Below, one piece after another: positions 41,538-58,115 of a stretch of 64,000 bases of DNA. The stretch's first letter is position 1. Every line of letters starts with the position of its first letter. The notes under the pieces were generated by a model. It was not told where the DNA came from. It did not search any database and worked only from the letters and a program-made list of their open reading frames with translations. The position numbers and the translations under genes were made by a program. The DNA comes from Bacteroidia bacterium (GTDB taxonomy: Bacteria > Bacteroidota > Bacteroidia > Bacteroidales > VadinHA17): positions 1 to 64,000 of the forward strand of contig JAPLDX010000056.1 of NCBI GenBank assembly GCA_026391215.1, in the 5' to 3' direction.

Positions 41538-44047
41538 TGAACCATCTTATCAGAACAATCCTATTTCTGACTTTCTTAATTAACTTTTTTTCTCCTCTCC
41601 TGCCACAGGAACCTGATAAGAAAGATTTTATCAGGACAGTCCAGGATGCTGATATCTATTATTATTATGATGAGGACTATGAAAAAGCGGCAAGCTTATA
41701 TGAGCCGCTTTTGAAATCAAATCCTGAAAACTGCAATATTGCTGGCAAGCTCGGGATATGCTATCTTAACATGGATGGTAAAAAAAAGGAGGCACTCAGG
41801 CTCCTTAGAATAGCTTCTGCAAATGTTGTGACAAATGACAAGGAATACGTTGAGTATGGAGAGAAAGCTCCCATGGATACTTACCTTTATCTTGCAATAG
41901 CGTATCATGTAAACGACAGCCTTGAAAAAGCCATCTCTCTTTACAATGATGTTAAGAATAGGCTTGGCGATCAGGATGTTTTCAGGGTCGATTTTATTGA
42001 CAATCAGATAAGGGATTGCAGGTATGCAATAGAAATGAAAAAGAAACCCCTTACTATTGTTTCCGAACTGCTGGTACCATGGCTGAAGGATTACCCCGGA
42101 GCTTGCAATCCGGTAATTTCAAAGAATGACTCTGTCTTTATTTTTACCCAGAAAAGAGAAGGCAGTACCCGCATCTTATGCTCTTATTATAATGACGGAT
42201 GGAAAAATCCGGTTGACATTACCCGGCAGCTTGGCGGGTATGACAGATTTTATTCAAATTCAATTACGGGCAACGGGAAAATCCTGGTATTGTACCTGGA
42301 TGACGGAGGAGATGGAAATCTTTACTTAAGTGAAAGAAAAGACAGTACCTGGACGAAAATAAAGAGCCCTGGTAAAAACATTAATTCAATCTACTGGGAA
42401 ACGCACGGCTTTATAACTCCTGACGGGAATATTTTATACTTTTCAAGCAACAGGCCGGGAGGAATGGGTGAACTGGATATATGGGTCTCGGAAAGGAATG
42501 AAGACGGAACCTGGAAGAACCCTGTTAATTGCGGTGATGTAATCAATACAGCATTTAATGAGGATACCCCATTTTTTGATCCCGCCACCAATGCTTTAAT
42601 ATACAGCTCTTCAGGGCACATCAGCATGGGAGGGTATGATGTTTTCAGATCTATCTCCAGGAATTCAGGATGGACAAATCCGGTCGGAATGCCCTTCGCT
42701 TATAATACCACCGGGGAGAATACATTTTTCATCCTTAATAATAATGCCCCTGGATTTATTGCCAGTCTTTATGATGACAAAATAGAATCAAGGAATATCT
42801 ATGCGATTGTTGCAATTGACCCTGCAGACGAGATTACAACAACTGAAGGAGTAATTACCCTTCAGGACGGTATGAATGTTGATCCTGCAAAAACGTCAAT
42901 TAGACTGACTGAGGCAAAAAAAGGCTCACTGGTCAAGACAGTTAATGTTAATGGTGATGGAAAGTTCCGATTTGATATTACACCTGGTGATTATCAGCTT
43001 TTTGTGAGCCATACAGGTTATAAGACGGATACTATCAACCTCAATCTGCCTCTGTATTTCCTTAGCCACTACATGGCTGTGAATCCTACCCTGGTACCCG
43101 AGAAAGTATCGGCCGGCGATTTCCTTGCTATTAAAAATATACTGTTCGCCTTTGATAGCTATGAGCTTGATCCTCAAGCAATATCGGCGCTTGAAACCCT
43201 TAAATCAATACTGATAAGTTATCCTGAACTTACAATAGAGGTTGACGGTTTCACCGATGCAAAGGGAAATTCTGAATATAATATGGCACTTTCAGATAAA
43301 AGAGCACAGACAGTTATTGACTACCTGACATCAATGGCTATTCCTGCTTCCAGGTTTGTAAAAAGAGTATTCGGTGAATCAGATTTTGTTGCTGTAAATG
43401 TAAACCGTGACGGATCAGATAACCCTGAAGGAAGGAAATACAACAGGAGAGCCTCCTTCGGTATTGTCGATCCTCATACCGGAGTAGTATTACGGCAGGA
43501 TACATATACTCCTGAACATTTGAGACTTGCATCTTCAATGAAGTACAGTATTGTTCTAGAGAAAACAATTGAGAAGCTGCCTATTTCTTCGTTTAAGAAT
43601 CTGAATCTCAGTGGAATACTATTCGTAAGATCAATAGAATCAGATTCCATATCCATATATGCTCTGGGGATATTCTATAACAAACCTGATGCTATTAAGT
43701 ATCTTGGTTATATAAAGGGCATGGGATATACTGAAGCTTATATCGTTAATCAGTATAATCTTAATAATGAAACCAGATCGCTTAAAAGAGTTGCTCCCAT
43801 GGTCATGCAAACCGGAGGAAAGAGAATCTACACTGTACAGTTGAAAGCTTCTAAATTGCCCTTAAACATGGAACAGTTCAGCGCCATAAAAGATGTCAGG
43901 GAAATATTTGGAGATGATGCCTATTACAGGTATATAGTTGGCGAGTACAGCGAACTTGCAAAGGCTCAGGAAGCTGTTGTCCAGATACATGAATCCGGTT
44001 TTAAGGATGCTTTTGTCAGGGAGCTTAACGTGATGGTGACAAAATAA
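41537..44047 (+). CDS. TPR + PD40 + beta-sandwich + OmpA-like PG-binding domain + two SPOR-like domains (PorE-like)
   Basis: ATG overlaps previous stop (TAATG); NILF.FDS..L, G.TD.KG..EYN..LS.KRA, GE, NRR; YSIVL..GY.EAYIV and YTVQL..GFKDAFVR. Confidence 0.85.
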   Translation: MNHLIRTILFLTFLINFFSPLLPQEPDKKDFIRTVQDADIYYYYDEDYEKAASLYEPLLKSNPENCNIAGKLGICYLNMDGKKKEALRLLRIASANVVTNDKEYVEYGEKAPMDTYLYLAIAYHVNDSLEKAISLYNDVKNRLGDQDVFRVDFIDNQIRDCRYAIEMKKKPLTIVSELLVPWLKDYPGACNPVISKNDSVFIFTQKREGSTRILCSYYNDGWKNPVDITRQLGGYDRFYSNSITGNGKILVLYLDDGGDGNLYLSERKDSTWTKIKSPGKNINSIYWETHGFITPDGNILYFSSNRPGGMGELDIWVSERNEDGTWKNPVNCGDVINTAFNEDTPFFDPATNALIYSSSGHISMGGYDVFRSISRNSGWTNPVGMPFAYNTTGENTFFILNNNAPGFIASLYDDKIESRNIYAIVAIDPADEITTTEGVITLQDGMNVDPAKTSIRLTEAKKGSLVKTVNVNGDGKFRFDITPGDYQLFVSHTGYKTDTINLNLPLYFLSHYMAVNPTLVPEKVSAGDFLAIKNILFAFDSYELDPQAISALETLKSILISYPELTIEVDGFTDAKGNSEYNMALSDKRAQTVIDYLTSMAIPASRFVKRVFGESDFVAVNVNRDGSDNPEGRKYNRRASFGIVDPHTGVVLRQDTYTPEHLRLASSMKYSIVLEKTIEKLPISSFKNLNLSGILFVRSIESDSISIYALGIFYNKPDAIKYLGYIKGMGYTEAYIVNQYNLNNETRSLKRVAPMVMQTGGKRIYTVQLKASKLPLNMEQFSAIKDVREIFGDDAYYRYIVGEYSELAKAQEAVVQIHESGFKDAFVRELNVMVTK

Positions 44048-52028: not shown

Positions 52029-52811
52029 ATGAAAAAATCGCTGCTGTTATCATTTACAGTTGTGTTATCCTTTTTATTATCACTCAGTTTTAATATTGAG
52101 GGTCAGACTGTAGTATTCTCAGAAAATTTCTCAGGTTTCTCCAACGGTACACATGCTTCTCAATCTTCGTATGATTATTCGGGTGTTCTTGACACAAAAA
52201 CCCAGCTGCCCGGATGGACAGGATATAAGGTCTATTCAGCGGGCGGAGAGATCAAGCTGGGTACTTCAGATGTACCCGGATGGATTGAGACTCCGTCAAT
52301 TGATTTGTCGGGATATGAAGGAGATGTTTTCATTGAATTTGATATTTCAAGATGGCCGGATGATGCTGCAATTGTACAGGTTTCACTTAACGGCTTTCCG
52401 CTTGGTAATACAATTGCTCCTGCCGATGAATTCCAGACTGTAGAAATACTGCTTACTGAGGAAATCACTTCAGCAAAGATAAAATTTGAATCTCTCGCGA
52501 AAAGGTTCTTCCTTGATAATGTCCGGGTTGTTGCTCAGAATGCCACATCTGCCGGCAATAATTATAAATTTGAATCCCGGATAAAAGTGTACCCGAACCC
52601 TGCCGGTGATTTAATCAATATCGACAATTTGAATGGAATAAGCAGGTTAGAGATTATTAACTTAAACGGAAGAGTAATGGAAGCGATTGACCTTTCAGAT
52701 ACAGAAAAGGTTGATCTGGCTTTGAACGACTTTCCGCCGGGCATTTATTTAATAAGATTTTTCACCGGCAGGAGTTCTTTTACAACAAGGTTTGTAAAAT
52801 ATAAAAAGTAA
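52029..52811 (+). CDS. Small T9SS substrate with type A CTD
   Basis: Signal peptide; beta-rich domain; IKVYPNP, GIYLIRF, RFVK. Confidence 0.85.
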   Translation: MKKSLLLSFTVVLSFLLSLSFNIEGQTVVFSENFSGFSNGTHASQSSYDYSGVLDTKTQLPGWTGYKVYSAGGEIKLGTSDVPGWIETPSIDLSGYEGDVFIEFDISRWPDDAAIVQVSLNGFPLGNTIAPADEFQTVEILLTEEITSAKIKFESLAKRFFLDNVRVVAQNATSAGNNYKFESRIKVYPNPAGDLINIDNLNGISRLEIINLNGRVMEAIDLSDTEKVDLALNDFPPGIYLIRFFTGRSSFTTRFVKYKK

Positions 52812-52924: not shown

Positions 52925-53013
52925 GGAGAGATGGCAGAGCGGTCGAATGCGGCGGTCTCGAAAACCGTTGTCCTGCTTACGCGGGACCGGGGGTTCGAAT
53001 CCCCCTCTCTCCG
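52925..53013 (+). tRNA. tRNA-Ser(CGA)
   Basis: GGAGAGA/TCTCTCC acceptor stem, anticodon arm GCGGT-CTCGAAA-ACCGT, long variable arm, GGTTCGAATCC; CCA not encoded. Confidence 0.96.
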
Positions 53014-53425: not shown

Positions 53426-54658
53426 ATGGGACTCAGAGGCCGGCTTATCATAATGAACTTCCTCCAGTTCTTTATCTGGGGATCGTGGTTGCTAACCATC
53501 GGGGCATATTGGTTTCAGAACAAAAACTGGTCAGGAACCGATTTCGGAGCTATCTTTTCAACAATGGGACTGGCTTCACTCTTCATGCCGGCCATTGCCG
53601 GGATCATTGCCGACAGGTGGGTCAATGCCGAAAGGGTGTATGGCATCTTTCACATTGCAGGTGCCGTCCTGCTTACACTAATTCCGTCCATCACTAATCC
53701 TGACACCTTTTTCTGGATTCTGCTGCTTACGATGATGTTCTACATGCCCACCCTGGCTCTGGCTATCACGGTGGCATACAGCTCTATGAAAAAGAGTGGT
53801 ATGGATATAATAAAGGATTACCCGCCGGTGAGGGTCTGGGGTACGATCGGCTTCATAGTGGCGCTGTGGGTGGTAAGCCTGCTGGGCTTTGAAACCTCAC
53901 CCTTGCAGTTCTATGTTGCGGCTGCCGCCTCTCTCCTGCTTGGTCTCTATGCCTTTACCCTCCCAAAGTGTCCGCCACTGGGCAGGGGACACAAGAAGAA
54001 ACTGGCAGAAGAGCTGGGTCTCAATGCCTTCAGACTTTTCAAAAGTTCCAAAATGGCCATCTTTTTCATCTTCGCCATGCTCCTGGGCGGTGCTCTGCAG
54101 CTGACCAACGCCTACGGCGACACTTTTCTGCACGATTTTGCAGACATACCGGAGTATAAAGACCTTCTTGCCGTAAGGTATCCAGCCATAATAATGTCAG
54201 TCTCACAGATCTCCGAAACCCTCTTCATTCTTACCATTCCCTTTTTCCTGAAAAAATTCGGGATAAAGAAGGTGATGCTGATGAGCATGGTGGCTTGGAT
54301 TCTCCGTTTCGGCCTGTTCGGATTCGGAAATCCCGCCGAAGGGCTCTGGCTGATCATCCTCTCATGCATCATTTACGGTATGGCCTTTGATTTCTTCAAT
54401 ATCTCGGGTTCCCTCTTCGTTGAGACCCAGTGTACTCCTGACATACGTGCCAGCGGCCAGGGCCTGTTCATGATGATGACTAACGGCTTCGGTGCTTTCC
54501 TTGGCAGCAGGATAAGCGGGATCGTGATTGACAAATACTTTACCCTGGGAGGCGGCGTATTCGACTGGAAGGGGATCTGGTTCACCTTTGCGGGTTATGC
54601 CCTGGTGGTGGTAATCCTCTTCGTCATACTCTTCAGGCATAAGCATGTTCAGAAGTAA
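53426..54658 (+). CDS. nupG: Nucleoside:H+ symporter (NupG/XapB-like MFS)
   Basis: MNFLQFF.WG.W, ADRW, YMPT, RVWGTIGF, Q.SE, AFDFFN.SG, QGL...MTNG.G; TATCTTCG at 53390-53397. Confidence 0.85.
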   Translation: MGLRGRLIIMNFLQFFIWGSWLLTIGAYWFQNKNWSGTDFGAIFSTMGLASLFMPAIAGIIADRWVNAERVYGIFHIAGAVLLTLIPSITNPDTFFWILLLTMMFYMPTLALAITVAYSSMKKSGMDIIKDYPPVRVWGTIGFIVALWVVSLLGFETSPLQFYVAAAASLLLGLYAFTLPKCPPLGRGHKKKLAEELGLNAFRLFKSSKMAIFFIFAMLLGGALQLTNAYGDTFLHDFADIPEYKDLLAVRYPAIIMSVSQISETLFILTIPFFLKKFGIKKVMLMSMVAWILRFGLFGFGNPAEGLWLIILSCIIYGMAFDFFNISGSLFVETQCTPDIRASGQGLFMMMTNGFGAFLGSRISGIVIDKYFTLGGGVFDWKGIWFTFAGYALVVVILFVILFRHKHVQK

Positions 54659-55449
54659 ACAGCTACCTGCCCTTGTTCAGGGAGAGCCCTGTAGATGATC
54701 TTTGCGTCGGTGCGGGGGATCCGTAGTTTAATAAATGGCTGATAATCAGGTACCCTGAAAGTAACAACTCTTAAGAATGTATTCCCGGCATTGATCAGCC
54801 TGTACCGCAGGTTAAATATGAAAAGACGTATCCCGTCACCAGACCGTAATTTTCCTTCCTGATAGATAAAAAGTCTCGTTCCGTTATCCATTTCCAAAAT
54901 GTAGTTCACCGGTTCATAATCGGCAGTATCGGGAATAATATCAGGTTTGAATTCAGAAGTATCTTTAGGAGCCATCCTGATCATGAGCGGTTCCTTCTCA
55001 ATGGAAGCTATACTCTTACTGATCGTAAATGGATTGGAAAGCATTGACAGAATGACATAATCGTTTTTTGCGCTTAACATCCTGCTGACTTTCATCTTCT
55101 TTATATCTGCTTTATGGACAACCACACCGTTTATCTCAAGGTTTACAGTACTATCAGGCATGTCGATAGTAAGGTAAATTGAATCGGACTCAGCCATTGC
55201 AACTTTTGACTGAAGGAATGATTTCTCCTTTAATAATGACAGATATGTTGAATCAGTAAATATCCTTTCGTCGACAGGTTTCTTTTCATCCTGCCTGAAC
55301 CCGTATATGTTTTTTAATTCTTTATATTTTTTTGCCGGGGCCAGCAATGTCATGATCGAATAATAAATCAGGAAACACAGTACGATGACTATCCATACAA
55401 TTATTTTGTATTTCCTGTCTGCAGATGTATATTCTTTTTCTGTTTCCAT
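54649..55449 (-). CDS. Membrane-anchored L,D-transpeptidase-like protein lacking catalytic His/Cys
   Basis: N-terminal TM; aligns by eye to neighbouring YkuD domain (YLTID...VNL...G; IKL....DAK.IY..L..G.V.V); no HG or GC motif. Confidence 0.55.
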   Translation of the reverse strand: METEKEYTSADRKYKIIVWIVIVLCFLIYYSIMTLLAPAKKYKELKNIYGFRQDEKKPVDERIFTDSTYLSLLKEKSFLQSKVAMAESDSIYLTIDMPDSTVNLEINGVVVHKADIKKMKVSRMLSAKNDYVILSMLSNPFTISKSIASIEKEPLMIRMAPKDTSEFKPDIIPDTADYEPVNYILEMDNGTRLFIYQEGKLRSGDGIRLFIFNLRYRLINAGNTFLRVVTFRVPDYQPFIKLRIPRTDAKIIYRALPEQGQVAVYF

Positions 55450-55466
55450 ATCGGTTCTTATCCGGA

Positions 55467-56279
55467 TCAGAATATGTATACTTTAGATCCTATGCTGAGG
55501 GTATTAAAAATAACCTTCAGATCTTCATCATTAAGACGGACACAACCATGAGTTACGGGCATGCCCAGAAACCTTTTGTAAATGGTTCCGTGGATCAGGT
55601 AACCATCACCCAGGGCGAGCGCATATTCTCCAAGCACTCCGTATTCATACCTCGAATAGTGGTCCTGAGGAGGTATTGGCAGTCCTTCCTCAACAAATGC
55701 CCAGTCAGGTTTCTTCCAGTAAGGATTTGTAGTTTTCCCCTGTATCCAGAATCTTCCCTTTGGAGTCTTAAATGTCCAGCTTCTTCCTTCCTCTGTTTTT
55801 AGCAATTTATAACTGCCTGTGCTGCAATGGCCTTCTCTCACAAGCTTCTTATTCCTGTAAAGACAAAAGAGGTTATCAGTTGTGTTGATCACAAGGTATG
55901 ATTGACCCGATGTATAGCTGTTATATTTTCTTGAAAGACGCTGAACATCTCTCTTTATCTGAGCTATCTGTTTCTTATAAACTGCGTCCTTCTTCAGTTC
56001 ATCTGAATTTTCAATGACAATTTTTACCACCCGGGGAATCTCTTGTATTGCCGGAATTGCATTGATAAAAAAGGCAAACAGTGAAGCTATGATTAATAAG
56101 ATAAGGAGCCCCATTGATAATGGCCGCAGAACTCTTATAACCTTTTCATTATCAAGTATTCTCTGGTAAAATGAATTGCCGGTGCCTTTTATCTCTTCTG
56201 TGGCATCAGGATCATTTTCAGCCGGTGTCTTTTCTATGCCGGGAAGTAATCCGTTATCAGGTATGAATTCATCTTCCAT
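55467..56279 (-). CDS. L,D-transpeptidase (YkuD, ErfK/YbiS-like), single TM
   Basis: CSTG, F.TP.G, NP.W..PDW, YLIHGT, THGCVRL. Confidence 0.92.
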   Translation of the reverse strand: MEDEFIPDNGLLPGIEKTPAENDPDATEEIKGTGNSFYQRILDNEKVIRVLRPLSMGLLILLIIASLFAFFINAIPAIQEIPRVVKIVIENSDELKKDAVYKKQIAQIKRDVQRLSRKYNSYTSGQSYLVINTTDNLFCLYRNKKLVREGHCSTGSYKLLKTEEGRSWTFKTPKGRFWIQGKTTNPYWKKPDWAFVEEGLPIPPQDHYSRYEYGVLGEYALALGDGYLIHGTIYKRFLGMPVTHGCVRLNDEDLKVIFNTLSIGSKVYIF

Positions 56280-56289
56280 CAGTGCAGAT

Positions 56290-57349
56290 TTATCTGTTCA
56301 GGACATGCCTGAGGCTGTACATAGATCCAACAATTGTTACAGGAGTTCCCTCCCTCACATACTTGAATATACTATCCATTTCCCTGTCTTTCAGAGCGAT
56401 GCATCCCGCAGTCCAGTCTGCGCCTCTTCCGCCGTTTCCATGAATTTCTATCATATCCCCTATCCTGGCTGAGCGTGATATACTGCCGCTTTCTATGGCA
56501 TGATTGAATTCCAATGTATCCTCCTCATTCGGGTAGTTAATCAGAAGCGCCTTATAATACTTGGTACTGTCACTTTCAAATTTCCTGGATATTTTATACA
56601 TGCCCTCAGGCCGCAGTGAATTCGGTAATTTTTGTTCCGTCAAGATAAACAAAAAATTTATGTGAAAATTTGTCGACGATGATCGAGTAATCATGACTTT
56701 CTCTCGATAAGGCTAAAGTGCTGTCAATCCATATTTTCCATTGAGGATATGATCTGAAATAACTCTTCAGGTTTTCATCAGCATATTGATAAGAAGATCC
56801 CAGGAGAGACTTTGAATCTGATATCTTGCTCTCTGCCTGGAGGTAATTGCCTTCCCTATAAGCTAATTCCGCTTCCCTCATCAGCATTTTTCCCAATGAT
56901 ATCTTATTACGTACTTCGATTGTCAGGGGATATGTCGGGAAGATCTTATTGATCTTTGCCATAAGGTCGTTAATGTCTTTCAACTCCTGTTCCAGGCGGA
57001 CCCTGAGGCTTGAAGTATTGTATACTGAGATTTCAGAAGCTTCTTTTGCTTTATTTGAGGATAATTCAGCCAGGGCGAGTATTTTGCTGTAATTTCTTTT
57101 ATAGATGAACTTTGTGTTTTCGCGCCTCCAGTTGGCCATTGCAGAATCGTAACAATTCATGGTTTCTTTGAACAGTTCCTCTGAGTAGATATCAGCTTTG
57201 TTTTTGCGGGCCAGGGAAATAGCTTCACGTGCCTCCTTCATTTCTTTTGCGGGAGGAGGAGGAACAGGATAAAAGAAAAGGAAAACCATCAGGGTTATGA
57301 AAACTGCAATTGCAGAAATTATAAGAATATGCCACCAGGGTTTTCCCAT
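56290..57349 (-). pseudogene. Frameshifted L,D-transpeptidase-family gene with N-terminal helical (DUF4398-like) stalk
   Basis: ORF 56606-57349 ends IIVDK...FFVY..G....EFTA; another frame resumes PEGMYKI...YKALLINYPN..D, IEIHG, DWTAGCIAL; junction at 56611/56610. Confidence 0.82.
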
Positions 57350-57370
57350 TAAAAGTGATTTTAGTTACCC

Positions 57371-57398
57371 AAAAAAAACCCCGGGGATAAACCCGGGG
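57371..57398 (-). terminator. Intrinsic terminator after the helical lipoprotein gene
   Basis: Minus strand CCCCGGG-TTTATC-CCCGGGG followed by T8. Confidence 0.85.
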
Positions 57399-57429
57399 AT
57401 ATTTCTTATTTCATGAAATTGATGACAGA

Positions 57430-58026
57430 TTAGAATCTGATCCTTGCTTTTGTTAAAGCTTCCTTGATTTCAGCGTTCAAACCGTCAGCTTTTTCTTTAG
57501 CAGCTTTGATCTTGTTAAGTGCATCCATGAAAGCACCCTTGTCATATGCGCCCTGAGCTTCAGCAACTGCAGCGTCGACATTTGACAGGTCAGCTTTGAT
57601 CTGCTCAATAACAGCAGCACCTTCTTTACCTCTCGGGAGTTTGAGAACGAGCTTGCCGTTTTCAGTAACAACATTCTTTATGTCGTTCAGAAGAGTTTCA
57701 GCTTCTTTCTTAATTTCATCTTTCTTGGCGGCTACTTTACCGGCGACCTCATTTGCCAGTGTTGTAACAGCAGCTAATTTTTCTTTTTCAGCTGCCATGC
57801 CTTTAAATAATTTTCCTTCTTTGGCTTCAATTGCAGCCATAACAGCGTTCAGTGAATCCTGTACTGCTGCGAATTCAGCAGGTAAATAAACATTAGCTTC
57901 TGCTACCTTAGCAGCCTCAATAGCAGCATTGGTTGCATCAATTTCAACTTGCGGTTTTTTTCCGCAACTGGAAAGAACAGCAACCATTGCGATAGCTGCC
58001 AGTCCCATTAAAATTTTACTTTTCAT
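57430..58026 (-). CDS. Ala/Lys-rich alpha-helical lipoprotein (DUF4398-like)
   Basis: Lipobox VLSS-C; P..E.....AI..A....A..Y.P.EF pattern; heavy use of GCT/AAA/GAA codons. Confidence 0.82.
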   Translation of the reverse strand: MKSKILMGLAAIAMVAVLSSCGKKPQVEIDATNAAIEAAKVAEANVYLPAEFAAVQDSLNAVMAAIEAKEGKLFKGMAAEKEKLAAVTTLANEVAGKVAAKKDEIKKEAETLLNDIKNVVTENGKLVLKLPRGKEGAAVIEQIKADLSNVDAAVAEAQGAYDKGAFMDALNKIKAAKEKADGLNAEIKEALTKARIRF

Positions 58027-58107
58027 TTCTAGATTTTTTAATACTTTGTTTATTTAAAACTTCCGATTTGTTTAAAATTAATCGTTTTAGTTTAAATTTT
58101 TACGGTG

Positions 58108-58115
58108 CGAAGATA
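58108..58115 (-). promoter_or_regulatory. Candidate -7 promoter of the lipoprotein/L,D-transpeptidase operon
   Basis: TATCTTCG(CA), one mismatch to TAnnTTTG, in AT-rich intergenic DNA. Confidence 0.5.

What the first reader, a model, noticed from the sequence alone, without database searches (positions are those of the whole stretch)
54649..58026. Candidate Braun-lipoprotein-like tether system: helical lipoprotein plus three L,D-transpeptidase-family genes
Seen: promoter motif, a 198-aa Ala/Lys-rich helical lipoprotein, a strong terminator, then three closely spaced TM-anchored YkuD-family genes. These are a PEG/YPN/DWTxGC type, an ErfK/YbiS-like IHGT/HGC type and a non-catalytic homolog. Known: E. 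coli LdtA-C attach Lpp via Lys to mDAP, and DpaA (YafK/LdtF) detaches it; I know of no Lpp equivalent described in Bacteroidota. Inference: abundant structural substrate plus low-level attaching, detaching and adaptor proteins. The lipoprotein has no C-terminal Lys (ends ARIRF), but the helix-breaking loop PRGKEG (57619-57636) offers an exposed Lys as acceptor.
Basis: partly seen in the sequence, partly recalled or inferred. Interest (0 to 1): 0.9.

Follow-up and report, generated by a model that had tools for sequence, protein, structure and literature searches.

The report
Candidate peptidoglycan-tethered lipoprotein cassette in Bacteroidota
A rod-shaped lipoprotein is always encoded next to three cell-wall enzyme-like genes in many Bacteroidota, and modelling puts its one universally conserved lysine loop in the active site of the cross-linking enzyme, so it may be this phylum's counterpart of Braun's lipoprotein, though no experiment has yet shown it.

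Summary
The window holds, on the minus strand:
- a lipoprotein gene (LP);
- a strong terminator;
- a DpaA/LD-carboxypeptidase-type YkuD gene (Ldt1);
- a canonical L,D-transpeptidase (Ldt2);
- a catalytically dead YkuD-fold protein (G3).

Correction: Ldt1 is split in the window because 53 bases are missing at 56610/56611. Independent contigs of two runs hold them, so this is an assembly fault or a variant.

All computable predictions of the tether idea passed.
- The four genes lie in the same order in 20/20 genus loci, in all 32 loci of other genera (two cut before G3) and in 7/7 loci of other classes.
- LP and G3 co-occur in 38 of 301 genomes of the order, against one genome with each alone.
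- The P-x-G-K loop is present in 60/61 LP homologues.
- A complex model docks this loop on the Ldt2 catalytic cysteine (score 0.66; controls 0.36, 0.01, 0.00).

New findings:
- LP is a distant DUF4398 relative and a paralogue of Ldt1's own stalk.
- It is a roughly 75 Å rod, with the lipid anchor and the lysine loop inferred to lie at opposite ends.

Covalent attachment remains untested. A non-covalent regulatory role is the main rival.

The parts
58108..58115 (-). Promoter -7-type box TATCTTCG, 89 nt upstream of the LP start codon
   Evidence: Read. A TAnnTT[TC]G box lies 85-95 nt upstream in all 21 genus copies (window plus 20 loci). The consensus itself is recalled from memory.
57430..58026 (-). 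LP: 198-aa lipoprotein, a distant DUF4398 relative. Helical rod made of two three-helix bundles that share one 50-residue helix.
   Evidence: There are 1455 homologues at E<=0.001, and none of the 120 listed carries a Pfam domain.
57964..57966 (-). Codon of Cys21, the lipobox cysteine (LSSC)
   Evidence: Invariant in A1 and A6. A lipobox pattern is found in 58 of 61 homologues.
57619..57636 (-). Loop P131-R-G-K134-E-G136 between helix 78-127 and helix 134-162; candidate acceptor lysine
   Evidence: P131, G133 and K134 are invariant. P-x-G-K is present in 60/61 homologues. Residues 131-143 lie in the predicted interface with Ldt2.
57371..57398 (-). Intrinsic terminator: stem 57398-57379 with 7 G-C pairs, then a T-run. 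It ends about 20 nt before the Ldt1 start codon.
   Evidence: A similar hairpin plus T-run is found in 45 of 58 loci, with different stem sequences.
56290..57349 (-). Ldt1: TM segment, LP-like DUF4398 stalk and a DpaA/LD-carboxypeptidase-type YkuD domain. It is split in the window because 53 bases are missing between 56610 and 56611.
55467..56279 (-). Ldt2: TM-anchored canonical L,D-transpeptidase (H230-G-T ... T243-H-G-C246-V-R248)
   Evidence: Arg at Cys+2 in 54/54 family members. Its catalytic face lies in the predicted interface with LP.
54649..55449 (-). G3: TM-anchored YkuD-fold protein without catalytic Cys or His (a pseudo-enzyme). It has a conserved, low-confidence loop at residues 149-175.
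   Evidence: Residues 169-172 touch LP in the complex model.

Best explanation
The cassette encodes a self-contained system that links the envelope to peptidoglycan (PG).

LP:
- A lipoprotein made from its own promoter.
- It folds into a rod about 75 Å long. The acylated N-terminus is at one end (inferred from topology). The invariant P-R-G-K-E-G loop and the basic C-terminal tail are at the other.

Expression design:
- A terminator directly after LP lets only a fraction of transcripts reach the three tightly spaced, membrane-anchored YkuD-type genes (inferred from sequence).

Proposed reaction cycle (inferred):
- Ldt2, a canonical L,D-transpeptidase, forms the acyl-enzyme with a PG stem peptide and passes it to the epsilon-amine of LP Lys134. 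This fixes the tip of the rod to the wall.
- Ldt1 is a DpaA-type hydrolase carried on a stalk paralogous to LP. It removes LP again, or trims stems.
- G3, a dead YkuD fold, helps to hold or present LP.

Shown here by computation only: the anatomy, the strict co-inheritance, the homology between LP and the stalk, the enzyme subtypes, and a docking model of the LP tip on the Ldt2 catalytic site.

Inferred: the covalent bond, which lysine is used, the direction of each reaction, and which membrane holds LP. The outer membrane is assumed. An inner-membrane-to-PG tether, as for OutB in Dickeya, fits as well.
For: Co-inheritance:
- Same gene order in 20/20 genus loci, in all 32 loci of other genera, 2 of them cut before G3 by a contig or fetch end, and in 7/7 loci of other classes.
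- LP and G3 presence in the same 301 genomes: both 38, LP only 1, G3 only 1, neither 261.

Lysine loop:
- P131, G133 and K134 are invariant in A1 and A6.
- P-x-G-K is present in 60/61 homologues.
- No other lysine is universal. The C-terminal residue is K in only 21/61, and the tails in other classes have no Lys.
- The single LP-like protein without the loop lies in a complete genome in which no G3 was found.

Geometry:
- LP model: pLDDT 87.4, pTM 0.70, helices 26-41, 49-70, 78-127, 134-162 and 166-193.
- Residues 21-122 match the DUF4398 structure 4FM3 (Z 10.5).
- Residues 102-190 match single three-helix bundles (Z 11.9, rmsd 1.7).
- The loop and residues 186-195 share one interface, so both lie at the end far from the anchor.

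Docking:
- ipSAE 0.66, the median of 3 runs.
- Controls: 0.00 and 0.01 with LP replaced; 0.36 with G3 replaced.
- The tool's mark was reached by 58 of 80 solved complexes and 2 of 110 mismatched pairs. These counts hold only roughly for a three-chain job with my own alignments.
- The runs agree in at least 92% of contacts, and the partner's pLDDT is at least 87.
- The interface comprises LP 131-143, 186, 189-190 and 193-195 with Ldt2 153, 188, 194, 198, 212-218, 233-237, 242-244, C246, R248 and 251.

Enzyme types:
- Ldt2 has Arg at Cys+2 in 54/54 family members.
- Ldt1 has Ala at Cys+2 in 50/52 and never Arg.
- Ldt1 has Glu or Gln in 52/52 at the position of the LD-carboxypeptidase D-Ala-pocket Trp158 of Csd6.
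- Criteria were read in passages of PMC8263019 and PMC10653827.

Expression design:
- A terminator follows LP in 45/58 loci.
- The gaps between Ldt1, Ldt2 and G3 are 10 and 17 nt in the window.

Precedent:
- The Coxiella lipoprotein LimB27 is linked through an internal Lys (passages of PMC12729407 and PMC12274547).
Against: - No biochemical data of any kind.
- Most known acceptors are terminal residues. Only LimB27 uses an internal Lys.
- Ldt2, Ldt1 and G3 are anchored in the inner membrane, whereas E. coli LdtA-C are soluble. Reaching the tip of an outer-membrane lipoprotein would need the two to meet within the PG layer.
- The membrane that holds LP is unknown.
- Ldt1 and Ldt2 are the only YkuD genes above the Pfam cut-off in this 98.9%-complete genome. 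They may simply do general 3-3 cross-linking and stem trimming.
- The docking model cannot tell a substrate from a pseudo-substrate inhibitor or an activator.
- The control that kept Ldt2 still scored 0.36.
- The calibration does not strictly apply to a three-chain job with my own alignments.
- Codon-usage support for high expression is weak. LP is at the 98.5th percentile, but the CAI of ribosomal genes (0.65-0.76) barely differs from the genome median of 0.71.
Confidence: 0.45

Rival explanations
1. The cassette is a PG-remodelling module with a non-covalent lipoprotein partner.
- Ldt2 makes 3-3 cross-links.
- Ldt1 trims or edits stem peptides.
- LP, alone or with the dead enzyme G3, binds the Ldt2 active-site face through its conserved loop. 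It acts as an activator, inhibitor or positioning factor, in the way the outer-membrane lipoproteins LpoA and LpoB control PBPs. LP never becomes wall-bound.
For: - The two YkuD genes of the cassette are the only ones above the Pfam cut-off in the genome, so general L,D-transpeptidase functions must come from them.
- LP is a paralogue of Ldt1's own stalk (hhalign probability 95.6%, E 1.2e-8; cross-hits E 3e-9 to 7e-22). This suits a structural or regulatory partner.
- The docking result fits a stable complex as well as a transient enzyme-substrate contact.
- Pseudo-enzymes usually act as regulators. This last point is general knowledge, not tested here.
Against: - A conserved terminator between LP and the enzymes (45/58 loci) implies much more LP than enzyme. 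That suits a substrate better than a one-to-one regulator.
- The universally conserved element is a Gly-flanked lysine sitting on the catalytic Cys/Arg face.
- Ldt1 lacks the D-Ala pocket Trp of stem-trimming LD-carboxypeptidases.
Confidence: 0.3
2. LP is covalently attached as in the best explanation, but it is an inner-membrane lipoprotein. The system then ties the inner membrane to peptidoglycan or sets the distance between them, as OutB does in Dickeya dadantii.
For: - All three partners are anchored in the inner membrane.
- LP and the Ldt1 stalk are homologous and of similar length. Rods standing on the same membrane would bring the LP tip and the Ldt1 catalytic domain to the same height.
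- An inner-membrane protein attached to PG by L,D-transpeptidases is documented (passages of PMC12274547).
Against: - From recall, not tested: most Bacteroidota lipoproteins are exported to the outer membrane, and no retention signal is known.
- Nothing in the sequence assigns LP to either membrane.
Confidence: 0.12
3. The cassette controls cell shape. Ldt1 would act as an LD-carboxypeptidase like Csd6, Pgp2 or Bd1075, with LP and G3 as accessory factors.
For: By sequence, the best solved relatives of the Ldt1 catalytic domain include Bd1075 (7O21, E 7.3e-10), Pgp2 (3e-8) and Csd6 (5.3e-6).
Against: - E. coli DpaA (8IKR) scores as well (1.3e-9).
- The Trp that lines the D-Ala pocket of these carboxypeptidases is Glu or Gln in 52/52 Ldt1 sequences (criterion from passages of PMC10653827).
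- The C-terminal NTF2-like domain of those enzymes (recalled) is absent.
Confidence: 0.08

Closest known systems
Braun's lipoprotein Lpp with LdtA-C and DpaA (E. coli)
   Same: - An N-terminally acylated helical rod of similar length: about 75 Å here (50-residue helix), against about 83 Å for Lpp (recalled).
- A canonical YkuD transpeptidase plus a DpaA-type YkuD hydrolase lacking the Arg after the catalytic Cys (PMC8263019).
- Signs that LP is made in excess over the enzymes.
   Different: - No sequence relation to Lpp: no Pfam LPP hit.
- 198 aa, predicted as a single-chain double three-helix bundle rather than a 58-aa trimeric coiled coil.
- The candidate acceptor is an internal loop Lys, not a C-terminal Lys.
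- The enzymes are membrane-anchored and encoded with the substrate in one cassette.
- There is an extra dead YkuD protein.
- Lpp occurs only in four gammaproteobacterial orders (passages of bioRxiv 10.1101/2021.05.31.446380).
LimB27 of Coxiella burnetii
   Same: An outer-membrane lipoprotein linked to meso-DAP through an internal lysine (passages of PMC12729407 and PMC12274547).
   Different: - Described as Coxiella-specific.
- Lys21 lies near the anchor, and the membrane is held about 35 Å from PG.
- Its transpeptidase is unknown and no cassette is described.
- Homology to LP was not tested, because the sequence was not at hand.
DUF4398 (PF14346), e.g. PA2901 of Pseudomonas aeruginosa (PDB 4FM3)
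   Same: - The N-terminal half of LP (residues 21-122) superposes on 4FM3: Z 10.5, 94 of 95 residues, 19% identity.
- 22 of 45 LP homologues and 15 of 45 Ldt1 stalks hit PF14346.
- NCBI names a Rhodocaloribacter litoris homologue 'DUF4398 domain-containing protein'.
   Different: - The window's LP itself has no PF14346 hit at E<=1.
- LP carries a second three-helix bundle with the P-x-G-K loop that the 78-position Pfam model does not cover.
- DUF4398 has no described function. It is mentioned in three papers; only the search listing was seen.
DpaA/YafK and the LD-carboxypeptidases Csd6, Pgp2 and Bd1075
   Same: - The Ldt1 catalytic domain shares the GDK..TPEG.Y...YY.A...YPN..D block and the GC-x-Ala motif.
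- It keeps the Tyr that corresponds to Csd6 Tyr133 and DpaA Tyr109.
   Different: - An N-terminal TM segment plus an LP-like stalk, instead of a soluble single domain.
- Far below the NCBIfam equivalog cut-off (31 against 365 bits).
- Glu or Gln at the position that is Trp in the carboxypeptidases and Met in DpaA.

Membership tests
Braun lipoprotein Lpp (Pfam PF04728) | Sequence homology to Lpp | tested here: not met
   No LPP family among the Pfam hits at E<=0.1 for the window's LP. None is among the 25 families most often matched by the 45 homologues at E<=1.
Braun lipoprotein Lpp (Pfam PF04728) | N-terminal lipobox cysteine | tested here: met
   LSSC with Cys21. Cys invariant. Lipobox pattern in 58/61 homologues.
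Braun lipoprotein Lpp (Pfam PF04728) | C-terminal lysine as the attachment site | tested here: not met
   The window's LP ends ARIRF. The last residue is K in 21 of 61 homologues, R in 18, F in 11 and S in 6.
Braun lipoprotein Lpp (Pfam PF04728) | Covalent bond to meso-DAP of peptidoglycan | not testable with these tools
   Needs analysis of sacculi. The only evidence here is a docking model that puts the Lys134 loop at the Ldt2 catalytic site.
DUF4398 (PF14346) | Match to the Pfam model at its gathering score (27.9 bits) | tested here: inconclusive
   The window's LP has no hit at E<=1. 22 of 45 homologues hit at E<=1 (best 7.3e-6). Fold match to 4FM3, Z 10.5. ESM Atlas neighbours are auto-named DUF4398.
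YkuD L,D-transpeptidase (PF03734): Ldt2 | Pfam match above cut-off, and the catalytic His...(S/T)HGC-x-R motif | tested here: met
   78 bits against a cut-off of 23.4. H230, T243, H244, G245, C246 and R248 are invariant. Arg at Cys+2 in 54/54.
DpaA/YafK amidase (NCBIfam NF040599): Ldt1 | Equivalog score | tested here: not met
   31 bits against a cut-off of 365, scored on the C-terminal fragment of the broken window gene.
DpaA/YafK amidase (NCBIfam NF040599): Ldt1 | No Arg two positions after the catalytic Cys (Ala or Asn instead) | tested here: met
   Ala in 50, Ser in 1 and Gly in 1 of 52. Criterion from passages of PMC8263019.
DpaA/YafK amidase (NCBIfam NF040599): Ldt1 | Amidase activity on the bond between PG and the protein | not testable with these tools
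   Needs an enzyme assay.
LD-carboxypeptidases Csd6/Pgp2/Bd1075: Ldt1 | Aromatic D-Ala pocket (Tyr133 and Trp158 of Csd6) | tested here: not met
   In the alignments, Csd6 Trp158 and the Pgp2 Trp align with a position that is Glu in 48 and Gln in 4 of 52 Ldt1 sequences. The Tyr is kept. Criterion from passages of PMC10653827.
YkuD fold, catalytically active: G3 | YkuD fold | tested here: met
   All 50 entries shown are YkuD-fold (L,D-transpeptidase family) proteins, Z 5.2-7.0 over residues 84-266. Foldseek probabilities reach 1.00. hhalign against Ldt2: E 1.1e-4, probability 56%. Z under 8 is a modest score.
YkuD fold, catalytically active: G3 | Catalytic Cys and His | tested here: not met
   The only invariant residue is G108, and no Cys or His is among the invariant or nearly invariant columns. 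No column has Cys in half or more of the sequences. One column has His in 37/46.

The most novel reading that the evidence does not exclude
Bacteroidota, including Rhodothermia, possess an ancient, self-contained covalent envelope tether that is unrelated to Lpp.
- A rod-shaped DUF4398-derived lipoprotein is cross-linked to peptidoglycan through an internal Gly-flanked lysine at its distal tip. The cross-link is made by a dedicated membrane-anchored L,D-transpeptidase.
- A dead L,D-transpeptidase assists as adaptor.
- A DpaA-type amidase, mounted on a paralogue of the rod itself, releases the lipoprotein again.
- In many lineages the system sits next to a divergent ECF sigma factor, which may adjust envelope spacing to stress.
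Probability: 0.4. Interest if true: 0.9.

Novelty: new variant of a known kind. Interest (0 to 1): 0.78.

Why it matters
- Covalent tethering of the outer membrane to peptidoglycan is textbook biology. Lpp itself, however, exists only in four gammaproteobacterial orders (passages of bioRxiv 10.1101/2021.05.31.446380).
- The 2025 review of L,D-transpeptidases lists attached proteins only from Proteobacteria and does not mention Bacteroidota: 0 occurrences of 'Bacteroid' in PMC12729407.
- Winkle et al. noted DpaA-like proteins in Bacteroidetes that lack Lpp and asked what their substrates are (PMC8263019). This cassette offers a concrete candidate substrate, with its enzymes encoded beside it and a single residue to mutate.
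- It would also give the first role to a DUF4398 protein and to a dead YkuD domain.
- If the rival holds instead, it would be the first lipoprotein regulator of L,D-transpeptidases.

Tried and rejected
Searches that gave no decisive result:
- BLASTP of LP against the Ldt1 N-terminal part gave nothing (E 7.1). The relation appeared only with profiles.
- Foldseek of the LP model against the PDB gave no match at E<=0.001.
- Z-scores from the wide structural search lie in the range the tool calls common for helical bundles. They support a fold only, not a function.

Codon adaptation:
- Tested as a proxy for abundance.
- LP 0.761 (98.5th percentile of 2345 ORFs of 150 aa or more); Ldt2 0.729; G3 0.694.
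- The 25 ribosomal-cluster reference genes span 0.654-0.759 around a genome median of 0.713, so the measure hardly discriminates. I do not rely on it.

Expression and fusions:
- No RNA holder was listed for the region, so expression could not be examined.
- No longer fused forms of LP (402-2000 aa) were found at E<=1e-5. The tool calls this weak evidence, and proteins of 348-401 aa, such as Ldt1, fell between the two length windows.

Reading I corrected:
- I first took the P-R-G-K loop to lie at the membrane-proximal end, assuming three long helices.
- I rejected this after one search showed the loop and residues 186-195 in one interface, and after one search showed two separate three-helix bundles.

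A fifth gene:
- A fifth conserved gene was sought and not accepted.
- A ~425-aa membrane protein follows G3 in 35 of 39 close-relative loci, but it is not among the families shared by the 39 distant loci.
- The divergent ECF sigma factor is present in only 12 of 20 distant loci. The window's genome has no close counterpart (best 25-31% identity), and the small partner protein gave no hit there.

Literature searches for an earlier description:
- Searches found no paper on this cassette or on a PG-linked lipoprotein in Bacteroidota.
The supplementary alignments of PMC8263019 and PMC10653827 could bear on the DpaA criteria.

- The single search of protein representatives was not used.

Full report
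**What is in the window.**

On the minus strand of 54649-58115 lie, in order:
- a promoter-like box;
- a 198-aa lipoprotein gene (LP, 57430-58026; lipobox LSSC, Cys21);
- a G+C-rich hairpin with a T-run (57398-57371);
- three closely spaced genes whose products each start with a hydrophobic segment.

The gaps between these three genes are 10 and 17 nt. The first starts about 20 nt after the terminator's T-run. There is therefore no room for a separate promoter of the usual kind, which is my inference.

Pfam finds YkuD in the second and third genes and nothing in LP or the fourth gene.

**A correction to the observation.**

The first YkuD gene (Ldt1) is not one open frame in the window.
- ORF 56606-57349 stops at a TGA, and the catalytic part lies in another frame.
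- All 52 related loci carry an intact gene. Fifty are 366-395 aa, and two were called shorter from a later ATG. All contain a conserved stretch between the two window fragments.
- From the alignment I inferred that 53 bases were missing.
- Laying Logan contigs of four metagenome runs on the region confirmed this. Contigs of X1 (possibly the source sample) and X2 hold '53 letters between' 56610 and 56611. An X3 contig continues there with letters that read in frame as the residues relatives have before the PEG motif.
- The break is an assembly omission or a minor variant. The gene is intact in the population.

**The four proteins.**

LP:
- It has 1455 homologues at E<=0.001. Among the 120 listed, none carries a Pfam domain, and the names given are mostly 'hypothetical protein' with a few automatic JGI labels.
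- Its AlphaFold model is confident: pLDDT 87.4, pTM 0.70, helices 26-41, 49-70, 78-127, 134-162 and 166-193.
- A Foldseek-independent structural search matched residues 21-122 to the DUF4398 protein PA2901 (4FM3; Z 10.5, 94 residues).
- The same search matched residues 102-190 to single three-helix bundles (Z 11.9, rmsd 1.7 Å). The whole length matched spectrin-like rods such as EzrA (Z 12.1).
- These Z values show a fold only.
- PF14346 (DUF4398) is the Pfam family hit by the most LP homologues: 22 of 45 at E<=1, best 7.3e-6.
- ESM Atlas neighbours carry that name.
- LP is thus two three-helix bundles sharing one 50-residue helix, a rod of about 75 Å.

Ldt1:
- It consists of a TM segment, a helical stalk and a YkuD domain.
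- The stalk is homologous to LP. hhalign of the two family alignments gives probability 95.6% and E 1.2e-8 over 172 columns.
- The Ldt1 profile hits LP proteins of other classes at E 3e-9 to 7e-22. tblastn with the stalk hits LP genes in three loci.
- 15 of 45 stalks hit PF14346 at E<=0.01.
- The catalytic domain's best solved relatives are Bd1075 (7.3e-10), E. coli DpaA 8IKR (1.3e-9; identified through the listing and passages), Pgp2 (3e-8) and Csd6 (5.3e-6).
- Two published discriminators were applied. DpaA-like proteins and LD-carboxypeptidases lack the Arg two positions after the catalytic Cys (passages of PMC8263019). Ldt1 has Ala in 50, Ser in 1 and Gly in 1 of 52.
- The carboxypeptidases have a D-Ala pocket lined by Tyr133 and Trp158 of Csd6, where DpaA has Tyr and Met (passages of PMC10653827).
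- In the alignments the Trp of Csd6 and Pgp2 aligns with a position that is Glu in 48 and Gln in 4 of 52 Ldt1 sequences.
- Ldt1 is therefore a hydrolase-type YkuD without the D-Ala pocket. It is nearer to DpaA in logic, but it is no equivalog (31 against 365 bits).

Ldt2:
- It is a canonical L,D-transpeptidase: 78 bits in Pfam, an invariant H230-G-T...T243-H-G-C246-x-R248 motif, and Arg at Cys+2 in 54 of 54.

G3:
- Its model (pLDDT 87.3, pTM 0.82) has a long N-terminal helix and a beta domain.
- The beta domain aligns to YkuD catalytic domains in all 50 entries shown (Z 5.2-7.0). Foldseek probabilities reach 1.00, and its best E-value is 2.1e-3.
- It also aligns collinearly to the Ldt2 profile (E 1.1e-4, probability 56%).
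- It has no conserved Cys and no invariant His.
- It keeps a conserved loop of low model confidence at residues 149-175.

**Is the cassette a unit?**

Gene order:
- LP-Ldt1-Ldt2-G3 is kept in 20 of 20 loci fetched from the genus.
- It is kept in all 32 loci from other genera of the order. Thirty show all four genes, and two are cut by a contig or fetch end.
- It is kept in 7 of 7 loci from other classes of the phylum. These classes include Rhodothermia, to judge from the names the protein search returned.

Co-occurrence in one fixed sample of 301 genomes of the order:
- LP was found strongly in 39 genomes and G3 strongly in 39.
- 38 genomes have both, 1 has LP only and 1 has G3 only. In both exceptions the hit lies on a short contig of a fragmented assembly.
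- 261 genomes have neither.
- I set aside weak hits at E about 1e-4: two for LP and five for G3, the latter falling in long unrelated frames.

Wider distribution:
- A pattern scan of 185,579 species genomes confirmed 574 of 599 matched stretches. The best 80 all come from uncultured Bacteroidales or Bacteroidota MAGs.

**The lysine loop.**

- P131, G133 and K134 are invariant in both LP alignments.
- P-x-G-K occurs in 60 of 61 sequences.
- No other lysine is universal. Lys193 and the Lys after the lipobox Cys are lost in other classes.
- The C-terminal residue is K in 21, R in 18, F in 11 and S in 6 of 61.
- The one LP-like protein without the loop (G535, a complete genome) has no Ldts within the ~6 kb fetched downstream of it, and no G3 was found anywhere in its genome. 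This is a single case.

**Docking.**

- I sent one complex job with Ldt2 (residues 100-270), G3 (50-266) and LP (22-198) as the scored partner, each with its family alignment.
- The score (ipSAE) was 0.66, the median of 3 runs.
- Controls gave 0.00 and 0.01 with LP replaced by unrelated proteins, and 0.36 with G3 replaced.
- The tool's mark was passed. In its calibration, 58 of 80 solved complexes and 2 of 110 mismatched pairs reached it. The tool warns that these counts hold only roughly for this kind of job.
- The runs agree in at least 92% of contacts, and the partner's pLDDT is at least 87.
- The interface comprises LP 131-143, 186, 189-190 and 193-195 against Ldt2 153, 188, 194, 198, 212-218, 233-237, 242-244, Cys246, Arg248 and 251. 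G3 residues 169-172 add a few contacts.
- Every invariant residue of LP's C-terminal half (P131, G133, K134, E186, K193) is in the interface.
- I know of no solved transpeptidase-Lpp complex (recall), so a pass from memory seems unlikely.
- The model shows where the predictor places the chains. It does not show that they bind, and it cannot tell a substrate from a regulator.

**Geometry.**

- The loop and residues 186-195 share one interface, so helices 134-162 and 166-193 form a hairpin on the C-terminal half of the long helix.
- The DUF4398 hairpin (26-70) packs on the N-terminal half.
- It follows, by topology and without coordinates, that the acylated Cys21 and the lysine loop lie at opposite ends of the rod.
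- In Ldt1 the same topology puts the catalytic domain at the far end of the stalk.

**Expression design.**

- A TAnnTT[TC]G box lies 85-95 nt upstream of LP in all 21 genus copies. The strict TAnnTTTG occurs upstream of LP in 22 of 52 copies scanned (window plus 51 loci), against 6.9 +/- 2.4 in shuffles.
- A terminator-like hairpin follows LP in 45 of 58 loci, with varied stem sequences.
- This fits an abundant LP and scarce enzymes, but no RNA data exist, and the codon-bias evidence is weak.

**Context that cuts the other way.**

- Ldt1 and Ldt2 are the only YkuD genes above the Pfam cut-off in this 98.9%-complete genome.
- Nine OmpA-domain genes are present.
- The cassette might therefore be the organism's general L,D-transpeptidase machinery, with LP as a non-covalent partner.

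**Comparison with what is known, and novelty.**

- Lpp is confined to four gammaproteobacterial orders.
- The PG-attached proteins listed in a December 2025 review are all proteobacterial. They include one lipoprotein with an internal Lys, LimB27.
- DpaA-like proteins in Bacteroidetes lacking Lpp have no known substrate.
- Seven literature searches found no description of this cassette.
- I file it as a new variant of a known kind: transpeptidase-mediated tethering of a lipoprotein.
- Its new features are an unrelated rod protein, an internal acceptor loop, membrane-anchored enzymes encoded with their substrate, a dead YkuD partner, and a remover mounted on a paralogue of the substrate.

**Verdict.**

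- The interpretation survived every test that computation allows, and it gained a docking model and a coherent geometry.
- The covalent bond is still unproven.
- My odds are about 0.45 for the covalent outer-membrane tether, 0.12 for the covalent inner-membrane variant, 0.30 for a non-covalent regulatory module and 0.08 for a shape-control role.

Noticed in passing
window 56610-56611: The window lacks 53 bases that Logan contigs of runs X1 and X2 hold at this point. An X3 contig also runs on there. The omission splits Ldt1 into two frames, so the assembly, not the organism, seems to be at fault.
   Followed up: yes
L201, L204-L207, L209, L210, L212-L214, L216, L217 (upstream of LP): In 12 of 20 loci from other genera, an ECF-type sigma factor is encoded divergently, directly upstream of LP (Sigma70_r2 and r4 in Pfam, tested on one member). 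In 11 of the 20 it is followed by a ~132-aa protein with no Pfam family. The window's genome has only 25-31% identical sigma paralogues and no hit to the small protein. This may mean control by envelope stress in those lineages.
   Followed up: partly
window 53426-54658 (+): A nucleoside:H+ symporter gene (Pfam Nuc_H_symport, E 2.8e-136) converges on G3 and overlaps its end by 10 nt. In 35 of 39 close-relative loci a different ~425-aa membrane protein, not identified, follows G3 on the same strand.
   Followed up: partly
G000 whole genome: The two YkuD genes of the cassette are the only ones above the Pfam cut-off in this genome. One sub-threshold match lies at C24:55518-55703. Nine OmpA-domain genes are present, one of them at window 43142-43411.
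   Followed up: partly
L028:4947-5633 and L030 (LP homologues): Some LP homologues end in a lysine-rich repeat tail (K-P-A-A units in L028). Tails are basic but very variable across the family: ARI[RK]F in the window's subclade, K/R-rich elsewhere in the order, and without Lys in other classes.
   Followed up: partly
window 54973-55003 (G3 residues 149-175): G3 carries a conserved motif (KEP...APKDT.E...PDT) in a loop of low model confidence (pLDDT 60-64). Residues 169-172 touch LP in the complex model. Its role is unknown.
   Followed up: no
window 55824-55826 (Ldt2 Cys152): Ldt2 has a second invariant cysteine (Cys152, in C-S-T-G-S), far in sequence from the catalytic Cys246. The neighbouring Ser153 is in the predicted interface with LP.
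   Followed up: no
window 52925-53013 (+): A tRNA gene (Rfam RF00005, 58.6 bits).
   Followed up: no
window 52029-52811 (+): A 260-aa secreted protein whose C-terminal ~80 residues look like a type IX secretion sorting domain. This is from recall; it was not scanned.
   Followed up: no
window 58027-58107: The ~80-nt leader between the promoter box and the LP start codon keeps the same length in all 21 genus copies. No Rfam family matches it at gathering score.
   Followed up: partly
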